Shown here in pieces: positions 4,789-25,084 of a stretch of DNA of 32,000 bases (positions within the stretch are counted from its first letter, which is position 1; each line of letters starts with the position of its first letter). This stretch comes from Candidatus Jettenia ecosi (GTDB lineage: Bacteria; Planctomycetota; Brocadiia; Brocadiales; Brocadiaceae), in NCBI GenBank assembly GCA_005524015.1, contig SULG01000002.1, positions 4,221 through 36,220 of the forward strand, in the 5' to 3' direction. The notes below the pieces were generated by a model. It ran no database searches. It was given only the letters and a program-made list of their open reading frames with translations, and was not told the origin of the DNA. Position numbers and translations under genes: made by a program.

Positions 4789-4805
4789 GAAAGATTATCC
4801 CGCTA

Positions 4806-5323: not shown

Positions 5324-5339
5324 TGGCACAATTTTTTCT
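5324..5339 (+). promoter_or_regulatory. Sigma-54-like promoter TGGCAC-N5-TTTCT
   Basis: GG at 5325-26 and the -12 C at 5338 have canonical spacing (G to C = 12). The -12 reads TTTCT rather than TTGCW. The site is about 120 nt upstream of the paralog-2 ATG and nearly identical in layout to 28361-28376 (ATTGGCAnAnnTTTTTCTAT). Confidence 0.45.
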
Positions 5340-5460
5340 ATGATAAGCTGTGTAGAAAAAGTAAAAGTATTTCTCGTTGAAGGGTATGAGATAAATTACT
5401 CAAATTACTTCTATTGCTTGGTATCCTGGCTATAGTTTGTTTTAATCTCAGGGAGGATTG

Positions 5461-7164: not shown

Positions 7165-7197
7165 CCATTCCTTAATCTCTATCTTCCTCACGCATAT

Positions 7198-7242
7198 GTG
7201 TCATGTCACAGTGCGTGGCAAGACACTCCTGTGTCATGTCAC
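7198..7242. promoter_or_regulatory. Cluster B of the palindromic sites
   Basis: GTGTCATGTCAC at 7198-7209 and 7231-7242, with degenerate GTGGCAAGACAC at 7215-7226 (17/16-bp spacing). The cluster starts 34 nt after the paralog-2 stop. Confidence 0.5.
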
Positions 7243-7661
7243 ATTTCATGTTGGTAAAATAGGTACGATAATCTGATCCTGAAAGTGTCTGTTAATAGCT
7301 TTATCTATTTACTATGAAATGAGATAAGAATATTCTATTCCGGTGTTATACATAATGAATTCATGATGAAATTCATCGTGTAGATTAAGAGTCAATTCTG
7401 GTTGAATGTTGTGTCATCTTACCCATGATTCTGGATTATCGATCATGTTAGAAAAACCATACTTATGTAGCCTTATGATTTAGTATCTTTTAGCACAAAA
7501 GGTATGGAAGACTTTTCCTGCAGTAAATGAAATTTCATAAGGTTATATGTTAGCTAAATTTATGTACACACCATATTGAAATTCTGCCAAAATTTAGCGC
7601 TTTAAATCAACGATATAAAGTCTTTTTCTTTTCTCTGTTTCCTCTTTGCGTTTGTACATTA

Positions 7662-8861
7662 ATGGTCTGTTTTTTGCTTACAAGACTAATTGGAGATTTC
7701 AGATTGGAGATATCAAAATTTATTCATACATTGACTGAAAATGAACAGGCGAGGCTATTGCTCGCTGGCTTGAATGACCTTGCGTATATCTATGATACAG
7801 AGGGAAATATTGTATTTGTAAACAAAGTATTTGAGAAGCTGACAGGACATAGACCGGAAGAATTCTTTGGAAAATCATTCACGTCTCTTTTTGAAGAAGA
7901 GGATATAAAAAAGGCGCTGGATACTTATACAAGAACGCTTCAGGGGGAGAGCCCCCACTATGAAATCTATTTTAGAAATACAAAAGTGTTCTGTGAGTAT
8001 AAGAATTCTCCTTTGACAGATGAGAGGGGAAATATAATTGGAGTTGCTGGTATTGCCAGAGATATTACCCTCCGTAAGGAACGCGAAGAAGAATTGAAAA
8101 CACTTAACAAATCTTTAGAGAAGCGGGCAGTTGAACATTCAACAAAACTCATGAAGATAAATGAAGAATTAACAGAAGAAATGAACGATCATAAACGGAT
8201 AGAGACAGAATTCAAACAAGATATTGAGAAGTTACAGAGGTCTTTAAGGATAATTATTCATATTCTTGCCTCTACGATTGAGTCGAAAGACATTTTTGCG
8301 GCGGATCACCAAAAACGTGTAACCCGGCTTGCCCGATGTATAGCAGAGGAGATGGGTCTTTTAAAGGACAGGGTTGATAGTATCTGTTTGGCAGCCGCTC
8401 TTCATGATATAGGAAAAGTGTCTGTGCCGGCAGAGATCCTTGGAAAAGTTGAGCAGCTTACCGAGAGTGAATTGAATGTGCTTAAGGCTCATTCGAGGGT
8501 AGGCTATGATATAGTAAGAGAAATAGAATTTCCTTCCCCTGTTGCTCAAATTGTGCTTCAGCATCATGAAAGAATTGATGGTTCCGGATATCCCATGCGT
8601 CTGACAAGTAAAGATATACTTTTGGAAGCCAAGATTTTAAGTGTGGCCGATGTTGTAGAGGCGATATCCTTTCCTCGTCCTTACCGGTCAACCTTTGGTC
8701 TGGATAATGCGCTGGAGGAAATCTCCAGAAACAAGGGCATTCTTTACGATTTTAATGTGGTGAACGCCTGTCTGACTGTTTTTCATGAAAAAGGATTTAC
8801 CTTTGAACAGGAATTGTACTCAAATGTAAAACTTTTCGACGATGTTTTATTGAGGAGATAA
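7662..8861 (+). CDS. PAS-domain HD-GYP phosphodiesterase (c-di-GMP hydrolysis)
   Basis: PAS segment ending 'ARDITLRK', a coiled coil, then HD-GYP motifs 'HDIGK' and 'HHERIDGSGYP'. The exact start is uncertain. Confidence 0.85.
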   Translation: MVCFLLTRLIGDFRLEISKFIHTLTENEQARLLLAGLNDLAYIYDTEGNIVFVNKVFEKLTGHRPEEFFGKSFTSLFEEEDIKKALDTYTRTLQGESPHYEIYFRNTKVFCEYKNSPLTDERGNIIGVAGIARDITLRKEREEELKTLNKSLEKRAVEHSTKLMKINEELTEEMNDHKRIETEFKQDIEKLQRSLRIIIHILASTIESKDIFAADHQKRVTRLARCIAEEMGLLKDRVDSICLAAALHDIGKVSVPAEILGKVEQLTESELNVLKAHSRVGYDIVREIEFPSPVAQIVLQHHERIDGSGYPMRLTSKDILLEAKILSVADVVEAISFPRPYRSTFGLDNALEEISRNKGILYDFNVVNACLTVFHEKGFTFEQELYSNVKLFDDVLLRR

Positions 8862-8970
8862 TTTTGTTGTCTAATAGCGGGACACAGATTAACACAGATA
8901 AGTACAAAATGTAGCGAAAGTTGATCTTTGGTTGTATGCAAATGTAGGGAACATACGGAACCTTAAACAT

Positions 8971-9052
8971 GTCATTGCGAGGGGTATTTTCCCGAAGCAA
9001 TCTCTTTTGAAATGTCCAAGGGATTGCTTCGGACAATACCCCTCGCAATGAC
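8971..9052. repeat. Nested-palindrome intergenic element, copy 3 of 3 (inverted)
   Basis: Same arms as the other copies. The asymmetric TATTGTCCGAAGC segment is on the opposite side, showing inverted orientation. Lies 110 nt after the HD-GYP stop. Confidence 0.85.
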
Positions 9053-9197
9053 ACAGCCCCATGCAGTTGAACCGATACAAATCGTATTATCATGAATTAT
9101 ATTGACAGTGTACTGGTCTGATCAGAACGTTCGGTATCGTCGTATTTCCTAACACAAGTTTAAAATCTGGAGTACCTTCGAAAGAGGATAATAGTAC

Positions 9198-9476
9198 ATG
9201 AGAACCAATAAATTCTTTGTATGTCCAAACTGTGGCAATATCAAAAAATTTAAAGTATTTATGAGTAATTTTCAAATAGTTACGCAATCCCCGGAATTAG
9301 GAATACGCATGAATGAAAGCGGTGTTTTGCCTAATTTGCGGCAGGCAGATAATTATATTGAGTGTCAACTATGTTTTAAAAAATCAGAATACGACGCAGC
9401 TGTAAATCTTGGTGAGAAATATATCAAAGACATATCAAATCAACCGAGGGAATTAAGGCGGTATACTGAGATGTAA
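9198..9476 (+). CDS. Small hypothetical zinc-ribbon protein (CPNC...CQLC)
   Basis: 92-aa ORF with SD AGAGGA about 9 nt upstream of the ATG and two CxxC pairs. No recognisable family. Confidence 0.5.
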   Translation: MRTNKFFVCPNCGNIKKFKVFMSNFQIVTQSPELGIRMNESGVLPNLRQADNYIECQLCFKKSEYDAAVNLGEKYIKDISNQPRELRRYTEM

Positions 9477-9864
9477 CAAGTAGTTAATCTGACAAAGCAA
9501 AATGTATGTTATGCATACAGTGTTGTATGATTTAAAAACAGATAAACATACATATAAAGATTTTATTTTAGAATACTTATGATAATTTATAGGTAAAACA
9601 GTATGAACAACATACAGAAAGTACGAATAAAAATTTCTCTTTATGGAAAAGGGATACTCCAATAAATTAAATACATGTATTGTAATAAGTTATATTTTAA
9701 ATAGTTATACATTATCCTTATAAAAATTTTCACATAAGGCATTTCCTGGCAAGTACATTGCTTATGATGGGATGGCAATGTTATACAGCATTAAAAATAA
9801 TTTTGCATGGTATCTTGTTTCGGGTGTCTGTTTGAAGAAATAAACAAGATTAATAAAAGATGCA

Positions 9865-10857
9865 ATGAAACTAATTGAAAACTATAAAAAAATAAGAGTT
9901 GTGAATAAAGCGTTAAATACAGCGCCAAATCATGTGAAGATGGAAGTAAACCATTATGCCCTTGTTGAAACATTTGTAGATGCTATTATATCGGCAAATC
10001 AGGAAGGGTGTATTGTTTACTGTAACCCTGCGGCAAAAAAGATGTTTGGATATCAGGAAGAAATCATTGGTTGCGATATTACCATCCTTATGCCTGAACG
10101 ATATCGGCTAAAATATCAAATAGGTATGACGAAGTACATAAATACAGGGCTAACAAGGATTATGGGACAAACCATAGAGTTAGTTGGTTTAAAGAAGGAT
10201 GGTATTGAATTTCCCATAGAGTTATCTGTATCGGCATGCGTGGTTGATGATCGATATTTTTTTACCGGTATTATCCGGGATATTACTGAAAGAAAGTGTA
10301 CGGAGTCTAAACTCCTTGAATCTAACAGGAAATTGCAAGAGCTTTCTATTAAGGATAGTTTAACGAATTTATATAATCGGCGTCATACCTTTCATGTAAT
10401 GGAAATTGAATTCAACAGGGCAAAAAGATATCAAAACTCTCTCTCATGTTTAATGATCGATATAGATTATTTTAAAAATATCAATGATATTTATGGTCAT
10501 CCCTTTGGAGATAAAGTACTCATACATTTTTCCTCCTTTTTACTCAATATGATACGCTCTACCGATATAGTTTCCCGGTATGGAGGTGAGGAGTTTCTTG
10601 TTATTCTTCCTGATGTAGATATAAAGGGCGCTACGGACTTTGCTGAAAGATTACGGGAAGCCGTATCTAGACATACTATAGAGGATAAAGAAAGGAATAT
10701 AAATGTGGCGTTGAGCATTAGTGTTGGAGTCAGCTCTTTTACCGATAGCACACTTAATAAAGAAGAAATAATAAGCCTGGCAGATAAAGCCCTTTACGAG
10801 GCCAAGCGATCGGGAAGAAACAGAGTTTGCTGTATTCAAACTTGTAAGACTGTTTAA
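9865..10857 (+). CDS. PAS-domain diguanylate cyclase (GGDEF)
   Basis: PAS segment ending 'IRDITERK'. GGDEF domain with active site 'RYGGEEF' and I-site 'RSTD' five residues upstream. Confidence 0.9.
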   Translation: MKLIENYKKIRVVNKALNTAPNHVKMEVNHYALVETFVDAIISANQEGCIVYCNPAAKKMFGYQEEIIGCDITILMPERYRLKYQIGMTKYINTGLTRIMGQTIELVGLKKDGIEFPIELSVSACVVDDRYFFTGIIRDITERKCTESKLLESNRKLQELSIKDSLTNLYNRRHTFHVMEIEFNRAKRYQNSLSCLMIDIDYFKNINDIYGHPFGDKVLIHFSSFLLNMIRSTDIVSRYGGEEFLVILPDVDIKGATDFAERLREAVSRHTIEDKERNINVALSISVGVSSFTDSTLNKEEIISLADKALYEAKRSGRNRVCCIQTCKTV

Positions 10858-10922
10858 AAAGCATAACTGTATCCGTATCTTTAAAACACTAAGAGGAACA
10901 CAAGACGTAGAGACGCAAGGTT

Positions 10923-10948
10923 TAGAGACGCAAGATTTTGCGTCTCTA
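10923..10948 (+). terminator. Hairpin TAGAGACGCAA-GATT-TTGCGTCTCTA after the GGDEF gene
   Basis: 11-bp perfect stem with a 4-nt loop, 66 nt after the stop. It is preceded by a direct half-copy (TAGAGACGCAAG at 10908-10919). No U-tract follows, so terminator function is uncertain. Confidence 0.4.
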
Positions 10949-10962
10949 CAGAGGAATGAACC

Positions 10963-11148
10963 CCATATGCATCAAGCTAACATGTGTAAACGGTGAAGAA
11001 TAACATAATCCCCCTTTAGAAAAGGGGGAAATCCAATCCCCCTTTGATCCCCCTTTAAAAAAGCTTATCCTTACCCACATCTTTTCAATCCCTTGCGGGT
11101 TCAATTTTGTAAATTGAACCCCTATATTTTGCATAGTCGATAGCTCAT
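10963..11148. repeat. Composite of dispersed repeats (inverted copies of 2084-2132 and 4730-4788, plus CCCCCTTT/AAAGGGGG motifs)
   Basis: 10969-11017 is the reverse complement of 2084-2132 (1-2 mismatches). 11090-11148 is the reverse complement of 4730-4788. CCATATGCATCAAGC is also found at 1776. Confidence 0.8.
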
Positions 11149-11426
11149 AGCGTTTTCATGGTTAAATACATAAGGAAATATTCCAAATTGAGGGTTCAGG
11201 TTATAAACCCGAACCCGCCCAAGGATCGATCATTGATCAGATTATCGTTCGAATGTCAGGTTCCATAACAATAATGCAAGCCCGAAGAGCGGCATGATTA
11301 TAGAGAATGCACTACGAGAGAATTTTAAGCAGTTGAAATTGTCATTGACATTAATTTTGTAAACTTGTAAAATGCCATTTTCTCAGTGACAGATACTTGT
11401 ATGATAAGTAGTTACAATAATTCCCA

Positions 11427-11822
11427 TTGTTGCATGAAATAAATATGTATATTGGCATTGATATAATAGAAATAAAACGTATTGAGAGATTATTTTCTTC
11501 TAATGAGGGTTTTCTGAGGAAAATTTATACGGAAAAAGAAGTAGAATACTGTAATCAAAAAAAGAATAAGTATCAGCATTTTGCAGCACGTTTTGCTACC
11601 AAAGAGGCTGTATTCAAGGCGTTAGGGACAGGCTGGATAGGCGCTATGAAATGGACAGATATTGAGTTGTTAAACGACGAAATGGGAAAACCGTATTTGA
11701 ACCTTTATGGAAGTGTAAAAGAACTGGCAAATAAAAAGAATATTAACAATATTTCCGTATCAGTATCCCATTGCCGGGATTATGCTATTGCTCAGGTATT
11801 ATTAGTGCCGGGTAGTATGTGA
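11427..11822 (+). CDS. acpS: Holo-[acyl-carrier-protein] synthase (AcpS-type 4'-phosphopantetheinyl transferase)
   Basis: 'IGIDIIEIKRI' N-terminus and 'FATKEAVFKALG' motif, with AcpS-like size. The track start is TTG at 11427. The ATG at 11445 (MYIGIDI...) is the more likely start. Confidence 0.85.
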   Translation: MLHEINMYIGIDIIEIKRIERLFSSNEGFLRKIYTEKEVEYCNQKKNKYQHFAARFATKEAVFKALGTGWIGAMKWTDIELLNDEMGKPYLNLYGSVKELANKKNINNISVSVSHCRDYAIAQVLLVPGSM

Positions 11823-11912
11823 AAATCTCAAACAGGGAAAAGTATAAAGGGTATCGATGTGATTTTTATAGATAAGTTTTGACAATACTTACTAACGCCA
11901 GAGGGAACTTTC

Positions 11913-13391
11913 ATGAAAAAACTCGTACTGATTAATCCTCATCCGATTGGAAATGTTGGGGAGGAAAATGTATCTGTGCTAAATCAAATGCCGGTGAATC
12001 TCGGTTATCTTAAGAGATTGACACCGCGGCATTGGCAGGTTGATATTATTGATGAGACCCAGGAGCTTGCTATTGATAGCGCAGGAAATATTACTTTCAG
12101 TGGGGCAGATCTGGTGGGTATTACATCGGTGAGTTATCAGGCTCATCGCGCCTACCAAATAGCTACTGCCTGCAAAAAAAAAGGCATACCTGTCATTATG
12201 GGCGGAATTCATGCTACGAGCTATCCGGAAGAGGTTGCAAAATATGTGGATTGTGTTGTTACGAGAGAGGCTATAACAATCTGGGAAAAGATACTGGCTG
12301 ATTTTGAAAATGGTGTTCTTCAAAAGAGATACGATGGTAATCTGACACCTATGGAGCTTTATCGTGATCTGAGGTCCGATAGGGAATATTTGAAGAATAA
12401 ATACAAATATAGATATTCAGGCATCATAACGACGGCCGGATGCCCGTTTAGTTGCGAGTTTTGTTCTGTTCCTCAATTTCAGGGTAAAAAATATCGGGAA
12501 AGGCCTGTTGAAGACGTCCTGGATGAATTAGAATCCATTAAGGGTCAATATCGTGGCCTGATATTAACGGATGAAAACTTTTATGGACATAGTAAAAAAT
12601 CCAACGAGCGTGTTCGTGCACTTTTCAAGGGTATGGTAGAAAGAGGTATTTATCAAAACTGGTTTGGTTTTACCTCTCTTAATATTTACTCAGATGACGA
12701 AACCCTTGAATATATGGTCAGGAGTGGATGCGTTGGGATGCTTATTGGAATTGAATCTATCAACGAAGAAGCCCTGAAAACCATGAATAAGAATGTGAAT
12801 TTGCGTATCTCAATAGAGAAGTACTTCGAGGCAATTGCTAACATCCGTAAACACGGTCTTGCTGTATGGGGGACTATGGTTTTCGGAAACGATGCCGATA
12901 CGCCTGAGACATTTAAGCAAGTTGCTGATTTTGTCTTGGATTCTCATGTAGATATTATGACGTGCGGTATTTTATGTCCATTTATTAACACGCCGCTTTA
13001 TCATAGATTAAAAAGCGATAATAGACTTTTTCGGACAAATTTTCCTGAGGACTGGAAGTACTATACATCTCATCACCTTACCTATATCCTCAAAAATATG
13101 TCTCTCCAGGAGCTTATTGATGGCTTTCAATATCTCTATGATAAAATTTATGCTACGGAGGTGTTACGGCAAAGATTCCAGAATGCTAAGGACGTGTTGA
13201 GTAAGAATATGAATGCCGCTATGTTTGCATTCAGGGTCAATTTAGATTGGCAGAACGTGTATCAGCACCTGATCCAAAATTTAAAAGCATTGCAGGTATC
13301 GGGATTTTACGATAGGGTCCTGAAGCTCTATAATGAATCGGAAAGACAAGGGGAAAAAACATCATTGACGCCAATTGAGGTCCCATCATAA
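11913..13391 (+). CDS. B12-binding-domain radical SAM enzyme (class B rSAM)
   Basis: N-terminal flavodoxin-like B12-binding-type segment ('DLVGITSVSYQAHRAYQIATACKKKGIPVIMGGIHAT'). Radical SAM cluster motif CxxxCxxC in 'AGCPFSCEFCSVPQF'. SD AGAGGGA upstream. Confidence 0.85.
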   Translation: MKKLVLINPHPIGNVGEENVSVLNQMPVNLGYLKRLTPRHWQVDIIDETQELAIDSAGNITFSGADLVGITSVSYQAHRAYQIATACKKKGIPVIMGGIHATSYPEEVAKYVDCVVTREAITIWEKILADFENGVLQKRYDGNLTPMELYRDLRSDREYLKNKYKYRYSGIITTAGCPFSCEFCSVPQFQGKKYRERPVEDVLDELESIKGQYRGLILTDENFYGHSKKSNERVRALFKGMVERGIYQNWFGFTSLNIYSDDETLEYMVRSGCVGMLIGIESINEEALKTMNKNVNLRISIEKYFEAIANIRKHGLAVWGTMVFGNDADTPETFKQVADFVLDSHVDIMTCGILCPFINTPLYHRLKSDNRLFRTNFPEDWKYYTSHHLTYILKNMSLQELIDGFQYLYDKIYATEVLRQRFQNAKDVLSKNMNAAMFAFRVNLDWQNVYQHLIQNLKALQVSGFYDRVLKLYNESERQGEKTSLTPIEVPS

Positions 13392-13450
13392 AACCTGTCA
13401 ACGATGGAAGCTTATTCTCATGGTCTTTTTACGTTATATTAACAATTAAC

Positions 13451-13501
13451 AGGTCAACGTATCCACGGGAGATGAGTGAATACGTTGACCTCTGTTGTTT
13501 T
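13451..13501 (+). terminator. Rho-independent-type terminator after the radical SAM gene
   Basis: Perfect 12-bp stem AGGTCAACGTAT (13451-62) / ATACGTTGACCT (13480-91) with a 17-nt loop, followed by the T-rich CTGTTGTTTT. Confidence 0.5.
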
Positions 13502-13762
13502 ACCAGTTAAAATAGATATACCAGTAGAGTTCATAATTACAGAAAATAGCGCACGGGCAAGAATGGAGCATAGGTTATGCCATCCACAAAGGATAAATCA
13601 AGAAGCAGGGAGTTTGATATAATCGCTTTTATCGAGGCACTGAAAGAGGTTTACGATTACTTTCCCGAGTATAAAGGAAAAAGAATAATTCCCATATTTT
13701 CTTCCCTTTCTATTTTACTTGAGTAATTACAATTTTAACAACCTACGAATGAGGTATTATTT

Positions 13763-14995
13763 CTGATTACTGAAAAAAATAAGTCAAAAGTAGTAATTAC
13801 CGGATTAGGACTGGTTACCCCTGTTGGGATAGGTGTTCAAAAAAGTTGGGAATCTTTTATCCATGGCTGCGATGGAGCTAATGAGATGAAGTCGTTCGAT
13901 ACCTCCCGGTACAAGGTTCACCGTTCTTGTGAGGTAAAGGATTTTCATCTGGATGTTGAATTAGAGAACCAGATAAAGGAAAACACCATCCATAAATATG
14001 TTTATTATGCAGCCCGGGAGGCGTTACAGGAAAGCGGTTTGTTGCATGATAAGAGCAGTTTTGATAAGGAACGTTTTGGTATTGCTATGGGAACCTTAGC
14101 TGCTGAATTAACACCTCATGAAAGACTTTTACGATTACATGCCTCAAAAAAAGATAACGGTTTTGATAAGATTGTCGCTGCTGTTTATCCTCCGAATTCT
14201 ATTACGAATATCCTTGCTCAATATTTTCACTTTGAAGGGCCTGCCATGGTCTCACTGAATGCCTGTTCTTCAGGTAATCATGCCATTGCATGGGCTTACG
14301 ACCTTCTTAGAGAAAATAAGGTAGATGTTGTAATGGTTGGTGGAGGGGATATGATCCCTCAAACGGAATTTACTCATTTCCATAATCTCAAAGCGCTTGC
14401 TCCTGAACACTGTCAGCCTTTTGATAAAAACAGGCAAGGACTCATGATTGGAGAAGGAGCCGGTATCTTGATCATGGAACGTTATGAATTTGCCAGGAAA
14501 AGGGGGGCGGTTATTATTGCTGAAATGGCGGGTTATGGATTAAGCTGTGATGGATTCCATATGACAGCGCCTCATCCGGAAGGTGAAGGTGCTGTAAAAT
14601 GTATGGGTGATGCGCTAAAAATGGCAAGGCTTTCTCCGTCTGATATTGGCTATATCAATGCACATGGTACGGGTACGCCACATAATGATAAGGCGGAGAC
14701 TATTGCTATAAAACACTTGTTCAAAGATCATGCTTATACCATTCCCTGCAGTTCTACAAAATCCATGATAGGCCATCTTATGGGTGCAGCAAGCGCTGTA
14801 GAATCTGTTATATGCTGTCTTGCATTACGATACGGAATATTGCCTCCGACAATTCATTACCATACACCTGATCCGGAGTGTGACCTTGATTACTTACCTA
14901 ACAGGGCGCGGGAGTTAACCGTTCAGCATGTTTTAAATAACTCATTTGCCTTTGGTGGTAATAACGCTACCACGATATTCAGTAAAATAGAATAG
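13763..14995 (+). CDS. Beta-ketoacyl synthase, FabF/KS-alpha type, catalytically complete
   Basis: Cys-His-His triad present: 'NACSSGNHAI', 'FHMTAPHP', 'NAHGTGTPHNDKAE', plus 'KSMIGHLMGAA'. The track ORF starts at ATG 13886, but the same frame is open from 13739 and encodes the conserved KS N-terminus 'KVVITGLGLVTPVGIG'. No ATG/GTG/TTG is available, so the proposed start is CTG 13763 with SD GAGG 8 nt upstream. Confidence 0.85.
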   Translation: MITEKNKSKVVITGLGLVTPVGIGVQKSWESFIHGCDGANEMKSFDTSRYKVHRSCEVKDFHLDVELENQIKENTIHKYVYYAAREALQESGLLHDKSSFDKERFGIAMGTLAAELTPHERLLRLHASKKDNGFDKIVAAVYPPNSITNILAQYFHFEGPAMVSLNACSSGNHAIAWAYDLLRENKVDVVMVGGGDMIPQTEFTHFHNLKALAPEHCQPFDKNRQGLMIGEGAGILIMERYEFARKRGAVIIAEMAGYGLSCDGFHMTAPHPEGEGAVKCMGDALKMARLSPSDIGYINAHGTGTPHNDKAETIAIKHLFKDHAYTIPCSSTKSMIGHLMGAASAVESVICCLALRYGILPPTIHYHTPDPECDLDYLPNRARELTVQHVLNNSFAFGGNNATTIFSKIE

Positions 14996-15008
14996 TCTTT
15001 ACATACGT

Positions 15009-16238
15009 ATGAAACGAAGAGTCGTAGTTACAGGAATAGGGATTGTATCACCTCTTGGATTTACCAAAGAGGATTTTTGGAATAACCTCATAGAGGGAAA
15101 ATCGGGCATTGTGCCAATGACATCTCTTGATCTCTCACCCTATACATGCAAGCTTGGCGGAGAGGTTAGAGACCTTCATCCCGAGATCTATCTTGGCAAT
15201 AAAGGTTTGAAGTACTTACATAAAGGCACAAGGTTCTTAGGGTCGGCCACGAAGATGGCGCTTGATGATGCAAAGTTACCACAGGATAGTTCTTTATCGG
15301 ATCAAATAGGTGTGGTTATTGGGTCGTCTTTAGGCAATTTTTCTGAAACAACAGATTATTTCTATGAGATTATCAGAAATAATCCTTCAGAATTATCGCC
15401 GATGGTCAGCTATGATGTTGCATTAAATTCTTCAATTAACTACGTTTCTGTTACCTTTAAGATAAAAGGACTTGCACGGACTATATCAGCAGGTTTCACA
15501 TCAAGTGCGGATGCGATAGGGAATGCATATGGTATAATTCAGCGAGATATGGCCAAAGTTATTGTTGCGGGCGGAGTCGAGCAGATTTCCATCGATCTGT
15601 ATCTCATATTTTACCTGCGGGGTCTCTTATCAGGTCTCGATGGCACAAAGGAGGCTAGTTTACCCTTCGATAACAAAAGGAATGGTTTTGTAATGTCTGA
15701 AGGCAGTTATGTAGTTATTCTCGAAGAGCTTCAGCATGCTCTGGACAGAGGAGCGCCTATCTACGCAGAAGTAAGAGGCTTTGGAAATGCCTTTGTAGGT
15801 GGTAAAAATTATTCGAAAGAGGAAAGGGCGCGCCGTGTTGAAAGGGCTATGTACAGCGCCTTAGAAGAAGCAGATATTAAGAAAGAAACTATTGATCTTA
15901 TCAGCGCAAATGCAAATGGATGCAAGATGCAGGATGCTATTGAAGCACAGACAATCCAATCCTTTTATGGCTCAAAGGGCAATGATATTCCTATCTCGGC
16001 AATAAAATCGAATATGGGTGAATCTTATGGCGCCGCAGGCGCTGCTCAGTTTATTTCTGCTGTCATGTCTATACATACCGGCACAATACCCCACATCATC
16101 AATCACAACGAAAAAGATCCGAAAGTTAATCTGAATCTTATCCTGCAGAATCCCGTCAGGAAAGAAATTCAAAATGCAATGGTAAACACCATGGATTACG
16201 ATGGAAATAATTCATGTTTGGTGATAAGTAAATTATGA
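15009..16238 (+). CDS. Ketosynthase-like protein lacking the catalytic triad (chain-length-factor / KS-beta-like)
   Basis: KS fold throughout (MKRRVVVTGIGIVSPLG...). By eye against E. coli FabF, the active-site Cys position is Phe ('SAGFTSSADAIG'), the HxTAP His is absent ('GFGNAFVGGKNY'), the second His is Asn ('SANANGCKMQD') and the KSxxGH His is Glu ('KSNMGESYGAAG'). Confidence 0.85.
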   Translation: MKRRVVVTGIGIVSPLGFTKEDFWNNLIEGKSGIVPMTSLDLSPYTCKLGGEVRDLHPEIYLGNKGLKYLHKGTRFLGSATKMALDDAKLPQDSSLSDQIGVVIGSSLGNFSETTDYFYEIIRNNPSELSPMVSYDVALNSSINYVSVTFKIKGLARTISAGFTSSADAIGNAYGIIQRDMAKVIVAGGVEQISIDLYLIFYLRGLLSGLDGTKEASLPFDNKRNGFVMSEGSYVVILEELQHALDRGAPIYAEVRGFGNAFVGGKNYSKEERARRVERAMYSALEEADIKKETIDLISANANGCKMQDAIEAQTIQSFYGSKGNDIPISAIKSNMGESYGAAGAAQFISAVMSIHTGTIPHIINHNEKDPKVNLNLILQNPVRKEIQNAMVNTMDYDGNNSCLVISKL

Positions 16239-18259
16239 GCAAACTGTTTGAAGAAATACCTGTCGGTCAGATGACAGTAAAAAACAGGATAATCATGTCT
16301 GCCATGGATTTGGGATTTACTTCTGACGGTACAGTGAATGACCGGATTATTCGTTTTTACGAGGATCGTGCCAAAGGCGGTGTCGGCCTCATTGTTGTAG
16401 GCGGTTGTTATCCGGAAATAAATGGCAAGGTTTGGAAGAGTATTATTGGATTAGACAAGGATGAGCTTATTCCGGGATTACGAAGATTGACAGATACTGT
16501 TCATGCCTATTATCAGGTGCGTATCGCCGCTCAGTTGCTTCACGGTGGCCGCAGCGCCTCATCCTTCTTTACAAAAATGCAGCCTGTTTCTCCCTCTCCC
16601 CTGGTGCACAGAAGTATCAAACAGGAACCTCATGCCCTGACAGTTTCAGAGATTAAAACGGTTATCGGTAATTATGTCAGCGCAACCGTAAGGGCAAAAA
16701 AGGCCGGCTTCGATGCCGTGGAGCTTCACGGTGGCATGGGATACCTCATTAATCAATTCCTTTCAAAGGCTACTAATAAGCGTGATGATGAGTATGGTGG
16801 AAGTCTTGAAAACAGGGTTCGTTTTGCCAGGGAGATAATAATCGCCATAAAAGAAGCCGTTGGGAAGGACTACCCCATCATCTTTCGAATGTCAGGAGAT
16901 GATCTTGTTGCGGAAGGGCTCAAAATAGATGAGAGTCTGGAAATTGCCCGGATGTTAGAGCAATCAGGCGCTGATGCCTTTAACGTATCTCCTGGCTGGC
17001 ATGAAAGCAGAACGCCTATCCTGTCAATGATTATTCCACGGATGGCTTACACCTTTCTTTCACAAAGGATCAAATCATGCGTAAAAGTTCCGGTAATTGC
17101 CTCAGTCAGAATAAACGATCTTACCTTGGCCGGAGAGATCTTAGACAATGAGCAGGCAGACATGGTATCCCTTGGCAGACCACTCATCGTAGATCCTGAT
17201 CTGCCGAATAAATATAAAAACGGGCAATTTGATGATATCAGAACATGCATTGCTTGTAATCAGGGTTGCTTTGATTCTTTGCTGAATTTTAAATCCGTTT
17301 CCTGTACGTATAATGCAATGGCAGGGCATGAAGGTGAATATAAAATAATTCCATCGGGCAAACCGAAAAAGGTGGTGGTCGTAGGTGGAGGACCTGCCGG
17401 TATGGAAGCTGCCCGTGTTTTGGCATTACGGGGACACAGGGTTACCTTGTATGAGAGGAAAAAACACCTGGGTGGTCAATTACGGTATGCCTTTATTCCT
17501 CCGGGACGTGAAGAAATACAAAATATTATCACCTACCTGGAAAAACAGATTTTCAGGCTTAAGGTACATATAAAAATCGGAAAAGAGGCTGATTTACAAA
17601 CGTTACAGGAGGAACATCCCGATGCCATAGTTGTAGCCACGGGCGGAAATCCTGTCATGCCCGACCTTCCCGGTATAAAAGGGAAACAGGTGTATACAGC
17701 AAGTACTATATTGGAGGGAAAAGTTTTATCGGGAAAGGACGTGGTCATACTTGGCGGTGGAACTGTAGGATGTGAGGTGGCGTTGCACATAGCCAAACAG
17801 GGAACAATGAGGCCTGATGTGGCTTGTTTTCTGTTAAAACACAAGGTGCTCAGCGACAGGGATGTCATTGAATACACTACAAGGGGAAATAAGAGTGTCA
17901 CCATTCTGGAAATGAAAAAGAAAATAGGTGGCGGATTTGGTATTTCCACACGATGGGTTATTCTCAATGAATTAAAAGATGCGGGGGTAAAAGAAATAAC
18001 AGAAGTGCGGGTGAAGGAAATAATAAATACGAATGAAAATGGCAGAAAAACGGAAGGCGTCGTTTATGAAAAGGGCGGAAAAGATTATTTTATCAAGGCC
18101 GATACCGTTATTATTGCTGTCGGGTACAGTCCTTATAACGATATACAAAAGCAGATAGAAGGAAAGTTTCCGGAGATGTATTGTATTGGTGATTGCGTTA
18201 AGGTTCGCACTGTATTAGAAGCTATTCACGAAGGTTTTGAAGTCGCCTTAAAGATATAA
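16235..18259 (+). CDS. 2,4-dienoyl-CoA reductase (FadH)-like flavoprotein: OYE-type FMN barrel + 4Fe-4S + FAD/NAD(P)H domain
   Basis: 'ELHGGMGYLINQFLS...NKRDDEYGGSLENRVRF' (old-yellow-enzyme barrel). Cys cluster 'CIACNQGCFDSLLNFKSVSC'. Dinucleotide fold 'VVVVGGGPAGMEAA' and a second 'VVILGGGTVGCEVA'. The ATGA start overlaps the upstream stop. Confidence 0.9.
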   Translation: MSKLFEEIPVGQMTVKNRIIMSAMDLGFTSDGTVNDRIIRFYEDRAKGGVGLIVVGGCYPEINGKVWKSIIGLDKDELIPGLRRLTDTVHAYYQVRIAAQLLHGGRSASSFFTKMQPVSPSPLVHRSIKQEPHALTVSEIKTVIGNYVSATVRAKKAGFDAVELHGGMGYLINQFLSKATNKRDDEYGGSLENRVRFAREIIIAIKEAVGKDYPIIFRMSGDDLVAEGLKIDESLEIARMLEQSGADAFNVSPGWHESRTPILSMIIPRMAYTFLSQRIKSCVKVPVIASVRINDLTLAGEILDNEQADMVSLGRPLIVDPDLPNKYKNGQFDDIRTCIACNQGCFDSLLNFKSVSCTYNAMAGHEGEYKIIPSGKPKKVVVVGGGPAGMEAARVLALRGHRVTLYERKKHLGGQLRYAFIPPGREEIQNIITYLEKQIFRLKVHIKIGKEADLQTLQEEHPDAIVVATGGNPVMPDLPGIKGKQVYTASTILEGKVLSGKDVVILGGGTVGCEVALHIAKQGTMRPDVACFLLKHKVLSDRDVIEYTTRGNKSVTILEMKKKIGGGFGISTRWVILNELKDAGVKEITEVRVKEIINTNENGRKTEGVVYEKGGKDYFIKADTVIIAVGYSPYNDIQKQIEGKFPEMYCIGDCVKVRTVLEAIHEGFEVALKI

Positions 18260-18316
18260 CACATTTTTACCCCAGATAGACACAGAAAAGCAGAGATAAC
18301 AATAAGGGTTTTGACA

Positions 18317-19123
18317 ATGAAAGATATCCGCATGAATCGTGGTGATAACTCCGGTTATGATCACATTGAATTCGAGGAAATCAGGGCACATAATGGTAAG
18401 GCCATCGGTATTATTTATCTGAAAAAACCTCCACGAAACTCTATAGGCTCATGGCTTCTGGATGCCCTCTATGATAAGATGGATCAGTATGAGGGTGATG
18501 AAAGGGTGGGCGCTATTATTATTGCCAGTAAACTAAGGAGCGTCTTTAGTGACGGCGCTGACCGTGATGAGCTCTTTGGCGCCTGGATATCGGGTCTTGT
18601 AGCTGATAAGAACTATGAACGGTTTCATCGCGCTCATGAGATGTTTGTGGAGATTGAAAATTGTAAAAAGCCTGTTATTGCTGCCATAAACGGAGTTACG
18701 ATCGGCGCTGGTTTAGAGCTTGCTATGCTGTGTGACCTGCGTATTGCATCTGAACTTTCCTTTTTCAGCCTGCCAGAGGCAAAGCCTGAACTGAGTATTA
18801 TTCCCGGTCTTGGAGGCACGCAGCGTTTGCCCCGTTATATCGGTATGGCGCGTGCTAAGGAGATGCTGTTTTTAGGAAAGATGATCCGTGCTGAGACCGC
18901 TTTGGAATGGGGTCTCATTAATCAAATTTCACCTCATAAAGAGGTTATAGACCATGCCGTAGTTTTGGCAGAAACGCTGTTAGAACGAGATGCAAGGGCG
19001 CTCAAAGAGATGAAGAAATGTATCAACTTTGCGGGAGAGAACGATATCCTGAAAGGTATCGAATATGAGGTAGGTCTCTTTGCAGAGATGATGCGATTAA
19101 AATTTTCGAATAAGGGTAAATAA
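18317..19123 (+). CDS. Enoyl-CoA hydratase/isomerase (crotonase) family protein
   Basis: 'AAINGVTIGAGLELAMLCDLRIA' and 'LPEAKPELSIIPGLGGTQRL', so both catalytic Glu positions are present. ATG 18317 with SD AAGGG 8 nt upstream (the track starts at TTG 18311). Confidence 0.9.
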   Translation: MKDIRMNRGDNSGYDHIEFEEIRAHNGKAIGIIYLKKPPRNSIGSWLLDALYDKMDQYEGDERVGAIIIASKLRSVFSDGADRDELFGAWISGLVADKNYERFHRAHEMFVEIENCKKPVIAAINGVTIGAGLELAMLCDLRIASELSFFSLPEAKPELSIIPGLGGTQRLPRYIGMARAKEMLFLGKMIRAETALEWGLINQISPHKEVIDHAVVLAETLLERDARALKEMKKCINFAGENDILKGIEYEVGLFAEMMRLKFSNKGK

Positions 19124-19195
19124 GGCATATTTTTGAAAATGCTTCCCATATTTTTTACCTTATAAAGAAAAACGACTAATCAAAAGGAGGTAATT

Positions 19196-19939
19196 ATGGA
19201 GTTCAAGGATACCGTAGCAATTGTTACAGGTGGTACCCGGGGTATAGGCAAGTCAATCGCATTGGAACTGGCAAAAAACGGCTGCAACATAGCCTTTAAC
19301 TACAATAAAAATACCGATGCCGCCCATCTTCTGGTAAAGGAAATTGAATCGATGGGTACCAAGGCCATTTCTTTCCAGGTAAATGCAGCCAGTTTTGAAG
19401 GCGCTAAGAATATGGTAAAAGAAGTGAAGGATAGATTTGGAAAGATTGATTTCCTGGTAAATAATGCCGGTATTACCCGTGATAAACTCCTCGCTTTAAT
19501 GGCAGAGAATGATTGGGACGATGTTATCAATACCAATCTCAAAAGTGTTTATAATTTTTCTAAATCGGTGATTACCCAGATGATCAAACAAAAATCCGGT
19601 AGTATCCTGAATATAACCTCAGTAAGCGGAATAACGGGAATAGCGGGTCAGGTAAACTATTCTTCCTCCAAGGCCGGTATGATAGGATTTACCAAGGCCC
19701 TTGCCAAAGAGGTGGGGAAGGCAAATATTACGGTAAATGCGATAGCCTGCGGCTTTATTGAAACAGATATGACGGCAGTTTTACCTCAGGAATATAAGGA
19801 TAAAATGATTGAGATGATTCCGGTAAGAAGATTTGGCACACCTGATGATGTTGCCAAAGCCGCGATTTTCCTGTTATCAGACCATGCTAAATACATTACC
19901 GGTCATGTAATTAGTGTCGATGGTGGTTTAGCAATGTAG
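19196..19939 (+). CDS. fabG: 3-oxoacyl-[ACP] reductase (SDR family)
   Basis: 'TGGTRGIGKSIA', 'NNAGITRD', catalytic 'YSSSKAG' and FabG-like length. Strong SD AAGGAGG. Confidence 0.9.
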   Translation: MEFKDTVAIVTGGTRGIGKSIALELAKNGCNIAFNYNKNTDAAHLLVKEIESMGTKAISFQVNAASFEGAKNMVKEVKDRFGKIDFLVNNAGITRDKLLALMAENDWDDVINTNLKSVYNFSKSVITQMIKQKSGSILNITSVSGITGIAGQVNYSSSKAGMIGFTKALAKEVGKANITVNAIACGFIETDMTAVLPQEYKDKMIEMIPVRRFGTPDDVAKAAIFLLSDHAKYITGHVISVDGGLAM

Positions 19940-20016
19940 AAAGAGAGTGGAGTCCTGATTCCTGCAGGAAACGTTACCGTACTGTTGCACCTATTGTAAA
20001 TTGAAAGGTAAAGACT

Positions 20017-20328
20017 ATGCTATTTTTATTAAAAGTTGAAATAAAACAAATGCCTCCTTTGCCGGTAAAAGACTTTTTGGAATATGTGATAAAAGAATGG
20101 GAATATTTTTCACGATTTCAAAGGCGTGGCAAGATTATAGCAGGTGGGAAATTGGCCGGTAAGAGGGGGGCTGCGGCTATAATCGATGCTGAATCCAATG
20201 AAGAGATGGAAGAGATCGTCTCAAAATTACCGCTCTTTCCGTTCTTTACCGATATAGAAATCACGCCCCTTGTGCCTATGGAGAAGGCGCTTCTGGATAC
20301 CAGGAGGATTCATTCGCTGATGAAGTAG
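20017..20328 (+). CDS. Muconolactone delta-isomerase-fold (dimeric alpha+beta barrel) small protein
   Basis: 103 aa. 'MLFLLKVEI...' N-terminus and 'AAIIDAESNEEMEEIVSKLPLFPFFTDIEITPLVP' match the MIase-like family pattern by eye. Last gene of the co-directional lipid cluster. Confidence 0.6.
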   Translation: MLFLLKVEIKQMPPLPVKDFLEYVIKEWEYFSRFQRRGKIIAGGKLAGKRGAAAIIDAESNEEMEEIVSKLPLFPFFTDIEITPLVPMEKALLDTRRIHSLMK

Positions 20329-21620: not shown

Positions 21621-21675
21621 GTCCAATCCTTAGTCAAATAGAAACGATATAGAATTTCGGTTGCAGCCTAATTTT

Positions 21676-25078: not shown

Positions 25079-25084
25079 TACATT

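What the first reader, a model, noticed from the sequence alone, without database searches (positions are those of the whole stretch)
11913..13391. A class-B (B12-binding) radical SAM enzyme is paired with acpS at the head of the lipid cluster
Seen: this 492-aa protein has an N-terminal B12-binding-type Rossmann segment and the motif CPFSCEFC. The start lies 90 nt after the acpS stop. A 12-bp-stem hairpin follows at 13451-13501. Established: class B rSAM enzymes catalyse methylation of unactivated carbons, ring contractions and other difficult C-C chemistry. Inference: co-expression with a PPTase suggests the substrate is carrier-protein-bound. This enzyme is the prime candidate for the non-canonical step (methylation, cross-linking or cyclisation of an acyl chain).
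Basis: partly seen in the sequence, partly recalled or inferred. Interest (0 to 1): 0.7.

Follow-up and report, generated by a model that had tools for sequence, protein, structure and literature searches.

The report
Known anammox ladderane-candidate radical SAM enzyme

Summary
ORF 11913-13391 encodes a 492-aa protein with a B12-binding Rossmann domain, a radical SAM core (CPFSCEFC, invariant Cys177/181/184) and a DUF4070 tail. It starts 90 nt after acpS and is followed by a 12-bp-stem hairpin. The window comes from the anammox bacterium Ca. Jettenia ecosi. The protein is 100% identical to GenBank TLD43504.1 and 79.6% identical to Kuenenia Kuste2803. Kuste2803 was proposed as a ladderane cyclisation catalyst in 2009 and expressed heterologously in 2016, and it is still uncharacterised. 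The order acpS-rSAM-KS-inactive KS (CLF-like, Cys→Phe) is conserved in Jettenia, Brocadia, Kuenenia, Subterrananammoxibius and Scalindua. Scalindua shares the full eight-gene cluster, which adds an enoate/dienoyl reductase, a crotonase, FabG and a muconolactone-isomerase-like protein. The protein is not BchE, HemN, HpnJ or PhpK, because every curated model scores far below its cut-off, and hemA adjacency is not conserved. Three additions: a three- to four-clade paralogue family; a conserved terminator-like hairpin separating acpS-rSAM from the KS genes; and homologous modules in GC-rich, apparently non-anammox genomes, one holding three tandem paralogues in a single supercluster. The enzyme's chemistry (ring formation or methylation) remains unproven.

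The parts
11345..11373 (+). Sigma-70-like promoter candidate (TTGACA-17-TAAAAT, 11 of 12 matches) upstream of acpS
   Evidence: This is a consensus match only, and the number of such sites in the region is not above the shuffle expectation.
11427..11822 (+). acpS, holo-ACP synthase. The ORF is listed from TTG 11427; the likely real start is ATG 11445 (MYIGIDII...).
   Evidence: Pfam ACPS at 71 bits; TIGR00516 at 103.6 bits against a cut-off of 59.8. It lies directly upstream of the rSAM in L003, L004, L085, L088 and L091.
11913..13391 (+). B12-binding-domain radical SAM protein, 492 aa. It is the ortholog of Kuenenia Kuste2803 and is identical to Ca. Jettenia ecosi TLD43504.1.
   Evidence: AF2 model pLDDT 91.7.
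11991..12272 (+). Cobalamin-binding-type Rossmann segment (aa 27-120). It has no DxHxxG motif. G97-G98-x-H100 are invariant.
   Evidence: Pfam PF02310; invariant columns; alternating beta-alpha pattern in the model; Foldseek matches to TsrM, TokK, CysS, OxsB and MgmA.
12441..12464 (+). CPFSCEFC: the CxxxCxxC motif that ligates the radical SAM [4Fe-4S] cluster (Cys177, 181, 184)
   Evidence: Read directly from the sequence; invariant in 45 homologues.
12990..13352 (+). C-terminal helical domain (DUF4070 at aa 360-432, then long helices to about aa 480)
   Evidence: Pfam PF13282 at 27.8 bits against GA 22; model secondary structure.
13441..13505 (+). Conserved hairpin (12-bp stem 13451-13462 / 13480-13491) with a T-rich tail. 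It looks like an intrinsic terminator or attenuator, or alternatively an operator palindrome.
   Evidence: dG -24.7, z -4.9. The sequence is conserved in L003 and L085. No compensatory changes were seen, so RNA structure versus DNA palindrome is not resolved.
13485..13513 (+). Sigma-70-like promoter candidate (TTGACC-17-TAAAAT) overlapping the 3' arm of the hairpin, upstream of the KS genes
   Evidence: consensus match only.
13763..14995 (+). KSa: active beta-ketoacyl synthase with an intact Cys-His-His triad. It is the Kuste2804 ortholog and is 47% identical to amxFabF2. Homology begins near 13787, upstream of the first ATG (13886).
15009..16238 (+). KSb: catalytically dead, chain-length-factor-like KS (Cys→Phe, His→Asn, His→Glu). 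It is the Kuste2805 ortholog and is 100% identical to a Ca. Jettenia ecosi protein.
   Evidence: The residue pattern equals Kuste2805 in Table 2 of PMC2649909.
16235..18259 (+). OYE/FadH-type Fe-S flavoprotein (enoate or 2,4-dienoyl reductase family). It overlaps KSb by 4 nt.
   Evidence: Pfam Oxidored_FMN plus Pyr_redox_2. NCBIfam scores are all below cut-off. It sits in the same position in Scalindua L088 (64% identity) and in L004.
18311..19123 (+). Crotonase-fold enoyl-CoA hydratase/isomerase
   Evidence: 77% identity to the Scalindua cluster gene.
19196..19939 (+). FabG-type 3-oxoacyl-ACP reductase
   Evidence: TIGR01830 at 321.8 bits against a cut-off of 297.75.
20017..20328 (+). Muconolactone-isomerase-like small protein, the last gene of the cluster
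   Evidence: Pfam MIase at 52.9 bits; 72% identity to the Scalindua cluster gene and 49% to the one in L083.

Best explanation
Shown. The gene encodes the Jettenia ortholog of Kuste2803. This protein has a cobalamin-type (class B architecture) radical SAM fold with one [4Fe-4S] site and a DUF4070 tail. It belongs to a tight family confined mainly to anammox bacteria (Brocadiales). It is always encoded as acpS-rSAM-KS-CLF-like KS.

Inferred. The enzyme works with the neighbouring KS/CLF-like pair and the cluster's reductive enzymes (FabG, crotonase, enoate/dienoyl reductase, MIase-like isomerase) on a thioester-tethered, probably ACP- or pantetheine-bound, unsaturated acyl intermediate. Reductive cleavage of SAM gives a 5'-deoxyadenosyl radical. 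That radical abstracts a hydrogen from the chain, and the substrate radical then forms a C-C bond (ring closure), with cobalamin assisting radical or redox control rather than methyl transfer. This would be one of the non-canonical steps of ladderane lipid synthesis, shared with or divided between this enzyme and its paralogue in the amxACP cluster.
For: Identity: 100% to TLD43504.1 and 79.6% over 491 aa to CAJ73554.1 (Kuste2803). The protein falls in clade A of the NJ tree.

Architecture: Pfam B12-binding, Radical_SAM and DUF4070. CxxxCxxC is invariant. The AF2 model has pLDDT 91.7. The best PDB matches are all Rossmann-plus-rSAM enzymes: AprD4, MgmA, TsrM, TokK, CysS and OxsB, with TM 0.57-0.68.

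Synteny: acpS-rSAM-KS-KS is found in the window, L003, L004 and L085, in Scalindua L088 and in Kuenenia-type L091. The complete eight-gene order is identical in Scalindua and Jettenia.

KS partner: KSa has an intact triad and KSb has C→F, H→N and H→E. This parallels amxFabF2/amxFabFmut, which were shown to form a KS/CLF-like functional heterodimer (bioRxiv 10.64898/2026.05.19.726425).

Precedent: CysS and TokK were crystallised with pantetheinylated substrates (descriptions).

Literature: Kuste2803 is named as a candidate cyclobutane-forming catalyst (PMC2649909, PMC9204698). As of August 2026 the responsible enzymes are still unknown (PMC13459092).
Against: No biochemical data exist for any family member. 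Heterologous expression of kuste2802-2805 in E. coli gave no new fatty acids, and the proteins were mostly insoluble (PMC4790861).

Most characterised class B enzymes are methyltransferases.

Close relatives (54-61% identity) with the same KS/Phe-CLF partner occur in genomes that do not look like anammox bacteria. L089 has GC 0.51 and a 90%-cluster mate labelled Blastocatellia. L083 has GC 0.65 and L090 has GC 0.58. This argues against a strictly ladderane-specific role.

The best structural hit, AprD4, is classed in PMC12931638 as unrelated to the B12-dependent rSAMs, and to my knowledge it binds no cobalamin, so the cofactor is not assured.

Crotonase and FadH-type enzymes usually act on CoA thioesters, not ACP thioesters.

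A terminator-like hairpin separates the rSAM from the KS genes in Jettenia and Brocadia.
Confidence: 0.4

Rival explanations
1. The enzyme is a conventional cobalamin-dependent radical SAM C-methyltransferase. It would methylate an unactivated carbon of an acyl chain. The product would be either one of the methyl-branched fatty acids reported in anammox bacteria (this point rests on my own knowledge of the lipid literature, not on a tool result) or methyl carbons that are later rearranged.
For: Most characterised class B enzymes are methyltransferases (PMC9204698, PMC12931638). The highest, though sub-threshold, NCBIfam score is to the PhpK P-methyltransferase family (93.6 bits). The structural neighbours MgmA, TsrM, TokK and CysS are methyltransferases. 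Occurrence in non-anammox-looking genomes fits a more generic modification.
Against: All methyltransferase models score far below their cut-offs. In published similarity networks the 'ladderane' enzyme sits with the non-methylating BchE and HpnJ (PMC9204698). Why a methylase would be strictly coupled to a KS/CLF pair in every lineage remains unexplained.
Confidence: 0.3
2. The rSAM plus KS/CLF module makes some other modified fatty acid or polyketide-like lipid that is not ladderane-specific and is shared with non-anammox bacteria. The ladderane rings would be made elsewhere, for example by the Kuste3608-type paralogue or by the kuste3335-3352 cluster.
For: Sister clade A' carries the same gene neighbours: L089 has KS, a Phe-CLF and the rSAM; L083 and L090 are superclusters with amxACP-like (52-53% identity) and amxFabZ-like (41-51%) genes. 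These loci have GC 0.51-0.65, against 0.39-0.45 for named anammox loci. A Blastocatellia label is attached to a 90%-cluster mate of the L089 rSAM. Recent experimental work has concentrated on Cluster I (kuste3603-3608), not on this cluster.
Against: The taxonomy of L083 and L090 is unresolved, and MAG labels can be wrong. Those organisms could make ladderane-like lipids that nobody has looked for. Clade A is present in every anammox family sampled.
Confidence: 0.2
3. The enzyme is cobalamin-independent, like AprD4. The N-terminal Rossmann domain would be structural or substrate-binding, and the enzyme would perform a dehydration, 1,2-shift or desaturation on the acyl chain.
For: AprD4 is the top hit both by sequence profile (E 7e-16) and by fold (TM 0.64-0.68). 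There is no DxHxxG motif.
Against: The N-terminal domain is very strongly conserved, with more than 20 invariant positions including GGxH. PF02310 scores above its gathering threshold. Absence of DxHxxG is normal for class B enzymes (my own knowledge).
Confidence: 0.08
4. The enzyme belongs to tetrapyrrole metabolism (BchE-, HemN-, BchQ- or BchR-like), as database names such as 'BchE/P-methylase family' and 'bacteriochlorophyllide d C-8(2)-methyltransferase', together with the nearby hemA, might suggest.
For: Names given by the sources. hemA and ccsA lie 7 kb downstream on the opposite strand.
Against: TIGR02026 BchE scores 84.6 bits against a cut-off of 481. There is no HemN domain. hemA is convergent, lies outside the cluster, and is absent from the homologous loci L003, L004, L085, L088 and L091. 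KS synteny is conserved instead.
Confidence: 0.02

Closest known systems
Kuste2803 (CAJ73554.1, UniProt Q1Q0N1) of Ca. Kuenenia stuttgartiensis, in the kuste2802-2805 cluster
   Same: 79.6% identity over the full length, the same domain set, and the same clade. The neighbours are also the same: acpS upstream, then an active KS and a Phe163-type inactive KS downstream.
   Different: In Kuenenia the cluster stops after the two KS genes and the rSAM-KS gap is 12 nt (L091). In Jettenia four more genes follow (OYE, ECH, FabG, MIase-like), and a 395-nt spacer with a conserved hairpin separates the rSAM from the KS genes.
Kuste3608, the B12 radical SAM of 'Cluster I' (amxACP-amxFabZ-amxFabF2-amxFabFmut-PDH-rSAM)
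   Same: It is a paralogue in the same family with 54% identity and the same architecture. It too is encoded next to a KS/CLF-like pair.
   Different: It belongs to a different clade (B). It has a 2-residue deletion and a GCPNxCD motif in place of GCPFSCE. It lies at the end rather than the head of its cluster, next to a phytoene-desaturase-like gene and an ACP.
BchE and HpnJ, the non-methylating cobalamin radical SAM enzymes (anaerobic Mg-protoporphyrin cyclase; hopanoid ring contraction)
   Same: B12-binding plus rSAM plus DUF4070-type layout. They group with the 'ladderane' enzyme in published similarity networks (PMC9204698). The proposed chemistry, C-C bond formation or rearrangement, is of the same type.
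   Different: Sequence scores are far below the family cut-offs: 84.6 against 481 for BchE and 81.3 against 578 for HpnJ. The genomic context is unrelated.
TokK and CysS, cobalamin radical SAM methyltransferases acting on pantetheinylated substrates
   Same: Fold matches with probability 1.0. They provide a precedent for class B enzymes acting on pantetheine- or carrier-linked substrates.
   Different: Only 14-16% identity. They are about 130-170 residues longer. They are methyltransferases from antibiotic pathways.
AprD4, radical SAM 1,2-diol dehydratase
   Same: It is the best match among solved structures by both sequence profile and fold, and it is of similar length.
   Different: 16% identity. 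It acts on an aminoglycoside substrate. It is listed as an 'unrelated enzyme' to the B12-dependent group in PMC12931638.

Membership tests
Radical SAM superfamily | CxxxCxxC motif within a partial TIM-barrel core | tested here: met
   C177/C181/C184 are invariant. PF04055 E 1.7e-20. The model and Foldseek matches are to rSAM cores.
Class B (cobalamin-dependent) radical SAM enzymes | N-terminal cobalamin-binding Rossmann domain fused to the rSAM core | tested here: met
   PF02310 scores 38.1 bits against a gathering score of 32.1. The best fold matches are TsrM, TokK, CysS, OxsB and MgmA.
Class B (cobalamin-dependent) radical SAM enzymes | Actually binds and uses cobalamin | not testable with these tools
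   AprD4, the top structural match, has the same domain but is classed as unrelated to the B12-dependent group. Spectroscopy or metal analysis of purified protein is needed.
Kuste2803 orthologous group (anammox acpS-linked B12 rSAM, clade A) | High full-length identity to Kuste2803 and placement in its clade rather than with Kuste3608 | tested here: met
   79.6% identity to Kuste2803 against 54.1% to Kuste3608; NJ tree.
Kuste2803 orthologous group (anammox acpS-linked B12 rSAM, clade A) | Gene order acpS - rSAM - active KS - inactive KS with Phe at the catalytic Cys position | tested here: met
   The Kuste2805 residue pattern from PMC2649909 Table 2 is reproduced in KSb.
BchE (TIGR02026) | Score at or above the curated equivalog cut-off (481.35 bits) | tested here: not met
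   84.6 bits.
HpnJ (TIGR03471), HpnR (TIGR04367) and PhpK (TIGR04479) | Score at or above the curated cut-off (578, 650 and 600 bits) | tested here: not met
   81.3, 69.1 and 93.6 bits. The same failure is seen for Kuste2803, Kuste3608, P0078, P0080 and P0065.
TIGR04072 'lipid biosynthesis B12-binding/radical SAM protein' (rSAM_ladder_B12) | Score at or above the curated cut-off (360 bits) | tested here: not met
   82.7 bits for the window protein, 77 for Kuste2803 and 87 for Kuste3608. That model describes a different lipid-linked rSAM family.
HemN-type coproporphyrinogen dehydrogenase | HemN_C domain and no B12 domain | tested here: not met
   No HemN family appears among the Pfam or NCBIfam hits.

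The most novel reading that the evidence does not exclude
The acpS-linked B12 radical SAM and its KS/CLF partner may be part of an ancestral, self-contained carbocycle-forming lipid pathway that is not restricted to anammox bacteria. In locus L083 (GCA_037446155.1, GC 0.65) all three rSAM paralogue types lie in one roughly 16-kb supercluster. The same supercluster holds both KS/CLF pairs, amxACP-like and amxFabZ-like genes, MIase-like, ECH and SDR genes, a second ACP, FabH and acpS. If that organism is not an anammox bacterium and the cluster makes ladderane-like or other polycyclic lipids, it would be a compact, expressible route to solving ladderane biosynthesis.
Probability: 0.15. Interest if true: 0.85.

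Novelty: already known. Interest (0 to 1): 0.42.

Why it matters
Ladderane lipids are the only known natural concatenated cyclobutanes. Their biosynthesis has been unsolved since 2002, and reviews from 2026 still state that the ring-forming enzymes are unknown. This enzyme family is one of two or three leading candidates, so it is biologically important. However, the finding as written repeats a hypothesis published in 2009 and does not move it forward.

This re-analysis adds three practical points:
- The conserved unit is larger than the four genes usually cited. Eight genes are identical in order from Scalindua to Jettenia and encode a full condense-reduce-dehydrate-reduce set plus an isomerase-like protein.
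- The KS next to the rSAM is a second KS/CLF-type pair, parallel to the one just characterised in Cluster I.
- GC-rich homologous superclusters exist that may give more soluble proteins, or a single expressible gene set.

Tried and rejected
(1) BchE/HemN/tetrapyrrole reading. Rejected, because curated models score far below their cut-offs and hemA adjacency is not conserved.

(2) Riboswitch or other known RNA in the 395-nt rSAM-KS spacer or anywhere in the window. Rfam gave no hit at E≤1 for 10800-14000 and none at gathering score for the whole window. No tRNAs were found.

(3) The 49-aa ORF at 13577-13726 in the spacer. It has no Pfam family, and the orthologous spacers in L003, L004, L085 and L091 are too short to hold it (12-181 nt). 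I treat it as non-coding.

(4) First impression that the best Kuenenia homologue was Kuste3608, which suggested the window gene was a relocated Cluster I gene. This was resolved: Kuste2803 was hidden as an unnamed member of the 90% cluster P0033.

(5) Taxonomic placement of L083 and L090. Exact look-ups of ten flanking proteins returned no names. A homology search with the L083 acyl-CoA dehydrogenase gave only Myxococcota, Gemmatimonadota and Nitrospirae-labelled relatives at 52-59%. A paper search for the accession found nothing, and its third term was poorly chosen. Further cluster look-ups gave no taxon. The placement is unresolved.

(8) Covariation test of the hairpin. With three sequences there were no compensatory pairs, so RNA structure versus DNA palindrome is undecided.

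(9) A link to bacterial membrane-spanning-lipid synthases (PMC13159169) was considered because of the Blastocatellia label. Nothing in that paper connects them, and the idea was not pursued.
Full report
**1. Observation**

The ORF at 11913-13391 (+) is real and encodes 492 aa.
- Pfam finds a B12-binding domain (aa 27-120, above the gathering score), a Radical_SAM core (aa 171-340, E 1.7e-20) and DUF4070 (aa 360-432).
- CPFSCEFC lies at nt 12441-12464. Its three cysteines (C177, C181, C184) are invariant in alignments of 18 and 45 homologues.
- The acpS stop ends at 11822 and the rSAM ATG is at 11913, which gives 90 nt.
- The hairpin is real. It has a 12-bp stem (13451-13462 paired with 13480-13491), dG -24.7 kcal/mol and z = -4.9, and none of 200 shuffles folds as well. 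A U-rich tail follows.

**2. Source and identity**

- The neighbouring KS (15009-16238) is 100% identical to a protein of Candidatus Jettenia ecosi.
- The rSAM itself is 100% identical over 492 aa to TLD43504.1, annotated 'BchE/P-methylase family protein [Ca. Jettenia ecosi]'. It is 97.6% identical to the Ca. Jettenia caeni protein. The window is therefore from an anammox bacterium.
- It is 79.6% identical to CAJ73554.1 of Kuenenia stuttgartiensis. Rattray et al. give CAJ73556 for Kuste2805, so CAJ73554 is Kuste2803 by consecutive numbering. [quoted passage not shown]
- A Kuenenia-type contig shows ACPS-rSAM-KS-KS, as expected (L091).

**3. What is already published**

- Rattray et al. 2009 (PMC2649909) singled out Kuste2803 as a possible catalyst of cyclisation or radical cascades in ladderane synthesis.
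- Javidpour et al. 2016 (PMC4790861) expressed kuste2802-2805 ('a complete cluster') in E. coli. They saw no new fatty acids and mostly insoluble protein.
- Bridwell-Rabb et al. 2022 (PMC9204698) list Kuste2803 as a potential cyclobutane-forming Cbl-dependent rSAM that clusters with BchE and HpnJ in the similarity network.
- Reviews from 2026 still say the ring-forming enzymes are unknown (PMC13459092; PMC12931638).

**4. Family structure**

Outside this family, identity falls abruptly.
- In a species-level genome scan, hits go from 88, 77, 52 and 50% (Brocadiales) to 36% or less.
- In the library clustered at 50% identity, only three representatives score better than E 1e-100. The rest have at most 41% identity, apart from a few truncated fragments.

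An NJ tree of about 130 sequences resolves four groups:
- Clade A is the Kuste2803 type. It contains the window protein and proteins from Brocadia, Loosdrechtia, Kuenenia, Scalindua, 'Wujingus', Subterrananammoxibius and Hypogeohydataceae.
- Clade A' is a sister group containing P0064, P0065, P0070, P0080, P0091 and P0106.
- Clade B is the Kuste3608 type. These genes lie in Cluster I, amxACP-amxFabZ-amxFabF2-amxFabFmut-PDH-rSAM (L001, L005, L006).
- Clade C is a third paralogue. In L087 it stands alone between futalosine-pathway genes and Mla genes.

No member of any clade reaches a curated NCBIfam cut-off. PhpK, BchE, HpnJ, HpnR, MgmA and TIGR04072 all score 60-100 bits against cut-offs of 360-650.

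**5. Structure**

An AlphaFold2 model built from 45 sequences is confident (pLDDT 91.7, pTM 0.90). It shows an N-terminal five-stranded Rossmann domain, a partial-barrel rSAM core and a long C-terminal helical domain.
- The best solved matches are AprD4, MgmA, TsrM, MiaB, TokK, CysS and OxsB, with TM 0.55-0.68 and 13-20% identity. Profile searches of PDB sequences agree.
- This supports the class B architecture. It also shows that no close structural relative has been solved.
- The top match is AprD4, which PMC12931638 classes as unrelated to the B12-dependent group. Cobalamin use therefore cannot be taken for granted.
- Only one conserved Cys triad is present, so there is no sign of an auxiliary cluster domain.

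**6. Genomic context**

The core order acpS-rSAM-KS-KS is found in:
- Jettenia (the window),
- two Brocadia-type loci (L003, L085),
- Subterrananammoxibius (L004),
- Scalindua (L088),
- Kuenenia (L091)

.

The acpS-rSAM spacer is only 8-28 nt in L088, L003, L004 and L091. It is 90 nt here and 367 nt in L085.

In Scalindua the whole eight-gene order matches the window: ACPS, rSAM, KS, KS, OYE/FadH-type reductase, ECH, SDR and MIase-like. The shared proteins are 58-77% identical. Scalindua and Jettenia belong to different anammox families, so the eight-gene layout may predate their split (inference). Kuenenia and Brocadia appear to have lost or moved the last four genes.

- KSa keeps the Cys-His-His triad.
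- KSb has Phe, Asn and Glu at those positions. This is exactly the pattern reported for Kuste2805.
- The pair parallels amxFabF2/amxFabFmut, which were recently shown to act only as a KS/CLF-like heterodimer.

Together with FabG, a crotonase and an Fe-S flavin enoate/dienoyl reductase, the cluster encodes a complete condense-reduce-dehydrate-reduce cycle. It also has an isomerase-like protein and the rSAM. It encodes no ACP.

**7. Transcription signals**

A strong promoter-like site lies upstream of acpS (11345-11373). Another overlaps the 3' arm of the hairpin (13485-13513). These are consensus matches only.

The hairpin sequence (AAGGTCAAC..ATTCAC / GTGAAT..GTTGACCT plus CTCTTGTTTT) is conserved in L003 and L085. 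It is absent in Kuenenia, where the rSAM and the KS gene are 12 nt apart. In the Jettenia/Brocadia group, acpS-rSAM may therefore be partly uncoupled from the KS genes. This weakens any 'co-expression' argument within the lipid cluster. With three sequences there is no covariation, so an operator palindrome is equally possible.

**8. Relatives outside typical anammox genomes**

- L089 carries KS, a Phe-type CLF and the rSAM. It comes from a forest-soil assembly and has GC 0.51. The rSAM is 57% identical to the window protein, and the KS genes are 50% and 43% identical. A 90%-cluster mate of the rSAM is labelled Blastocatellia.
- L090 (GC 0.58) carries rSAM, an amxACP-like gene, a FabZ-like gene, a second rSAM, KS, CLF, ECH and further genes.
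- L083 (GCA_037446155.1, GC 0.65) carries, in order: an amxACP-like gene (53%), an amxFabZ-like gene (51%), a FabF2-like KS (57%), a degenerate KS, a clade-B-like rSAM, a clade-C-like rSAM, the clade-A' rSAM P0080, KS, CLF, MIase-like (49%), ECH (44%), SDR (50%), ACP, FabH, ACPS and KS.
- L084 has an rSAM that is 61% identical but has no KS gene nearby.

Named anammox loci have GC 0.39-0.45. I could not place L083 or L090 taxonomically.

These loci show two things. First, the two 'separate' Kuenenia clusters (2802-2805 and 3603-3608) can be physically joined. Second, the gene set may not be unique to classical anammox bacteria. This cuts both ways for the ladderane hypothesis.

**9. Mechanism**

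Shown:
- a radical SAM core with one cluster site;
- a cobalamin-type domain;
- obligatory linkage to a KS/CLF pair and to acpS;
- membership of an anammox-centred paralogue family.

Inferred: the enzyme generates a 5'-deoxyadenosyl radical, abstracts hydrogen from a thioester-tethered unsaturated acyl intermediate supplied by the neighbouring enzymes, and closes a C-C bond. This fits the 'type c' stepwise ring-formation scheme of Dietl et al. (PMC10139942), or alternatively a polyene cyclisation.

I give the ring-closure mechanism about 0.4. A conventional methyltransferase role gets about 0.3. A non-ladderane lipid role shared with other bacteria gets about 0.2. A cobalamin-independent AprD4-like role gets about 0.08. 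A tetrapyrrole role gets about 0.02.

**10. Verdict**

It is overstated on two points: acpS as evidence for a carrier-bound substrate, and 'prime candidate' status despite paralogues.

Novelty of the finding as stated: already known.

Its interest comes from the unsolved ladderane problem and from the extra leads found here, namely the eight-gene conserved unit, the second KS/CLF pair and the GC-rich superclusters.

Noticed in passing
window 13739-13900: KSa has no ATG, GTG or TTG where its homologues start. The codon aligned with the ATG start of L003, L085, L004 and L088 is AAG (13781-13783). KS homology (KVVITGLGLV...) runs from about 13787, but the first canonical start is ATG 13886, which would remove about 35 N-terminal residues. 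Possible rare starts are CTG 13763 and ATT 13766, 9-12 nt after a GAGG. The same sequence is present in an independent Logan assembly (L086).
   Followed up: partly
window 13441-13505; L003 about 11527-11575; L085 about 8577-8620: The hairpin after the rSAM gene is conserved in sequence in Brocadia-type relatives (AAGGTCAAC..ATTCAC / GTGAAT..GTTGACCT, then CTCTTGTTTT). It is absent in Kuenenia, where the rSAM and the KS gene are 12 nt apart. It could be a terminator or attenuator, or a protein-binding palindrome.
   Followed up: partly
window 15009-16238: KSb is a catalytically dead, chain-length-factor-like ketosynthase (Cys→Phe, His→Asn, His→Glu). This is the same pattern as Kuste2805. It suggests a second KS/CLF heterodimer parallel to amxFabF2/amxFabFmut.
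   Followed up: yes
window 11427-20328 and L088 965-9755: The eight-gene order acpS, rSAM, KS, CLF-like KS, OYE/FadH reductase, ECH, FabG and MIase-like is identical in Scalindua and Jettenia. The literature treats only the first four genes (kuste2802-2805) as the cluster.
   Followed up: yes
L083 3954-18974 (GCA_037446155.1, GC 0.65): This supercluster has three tandem B12 rSAM paralogues (clade-B-like, clade-C-like and clade A'). It also holds two KS/CLF pairs, amxACP-like and amxFabZ-like genes, MIase-like, ECH, SDR, a second ACP, FabH, ACPS and another KS. An acyl-CoA dehydrogenase lies just upstream. The host taxon is unresolved.
   Followed up: partly
L089 5477-9476; L090 5980-13164; L084 10001-13821: Sister-clade rSAMs (55-61% identity) occur in GC 0.51-0.58 contigs. 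L089 has KS, a Phe-CLF and the rSAM, with a Blastocatellia label on a 90%-cluster mate. L090 has two rSAMs plus an amxACP-like gene, a FabZ-like gene, KS/CLF and ECH. L084 has the rSAM followed by a GCV_T-like gene and an acyl-CoA dehydrogenase, with no KS.
   Followed up: partly
L087 10001-11425: A third paralogue clade (C) of the rSAM stands alone, between futalosine-type menaquinone genes and an Mla lipid-transport operon. It is not next to any KS gene.
   Followed up: no
window 42-10857: Upstream of the cluster lies a dense signalling region. It holds a PAS histidine kinase, two paralogous sigma-54-dependent response regulators (2783-4486 and 5458-7164, which look very similar by eye; identity not computed), a PAS protein that resembles an HD-domain enzyme (7662-8861; assignment inferred from the Pfam annotation of the corresponding gene in L085, not scanned here) and a PAS-GGDEF cyclase (9865-10857, confirmed by Pfam). 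A similar kinase, sigma-54 regulator and HD-domain arrangement precedes acpS in Brocadia L085.
   Followed up: no
window 20334-22584 (-): hemA (glutamyl-tRNA reductase) and a CcsA-type cytochrome c assembly gene lie convergent to the lipid cluster. This adjacency is not seen in the homologous loci, so it gives no tetrapyrrole link for the rSAM.
   Followed up: yes
window 23368-26233: This stretch holds an unknown 225-aa protein (weak ATC_hydrolase-like hit), a ThiF-family E1-like enzyme and a class V aminotransferase/cysteine desulfurase in one operon-like run. It may be a sulfur-transfer module and appears unrelated to the finding.
   Followed up: no
window 13577-13726: A 49-aa ORF lies in the 395-nt rSAM-KS spacer. 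It has no family match, and the orthologous spacers in L003, L004, L085 and L091 are too short to hold it (12-181 nt). It is probably non-coding.
   Followed up: partly
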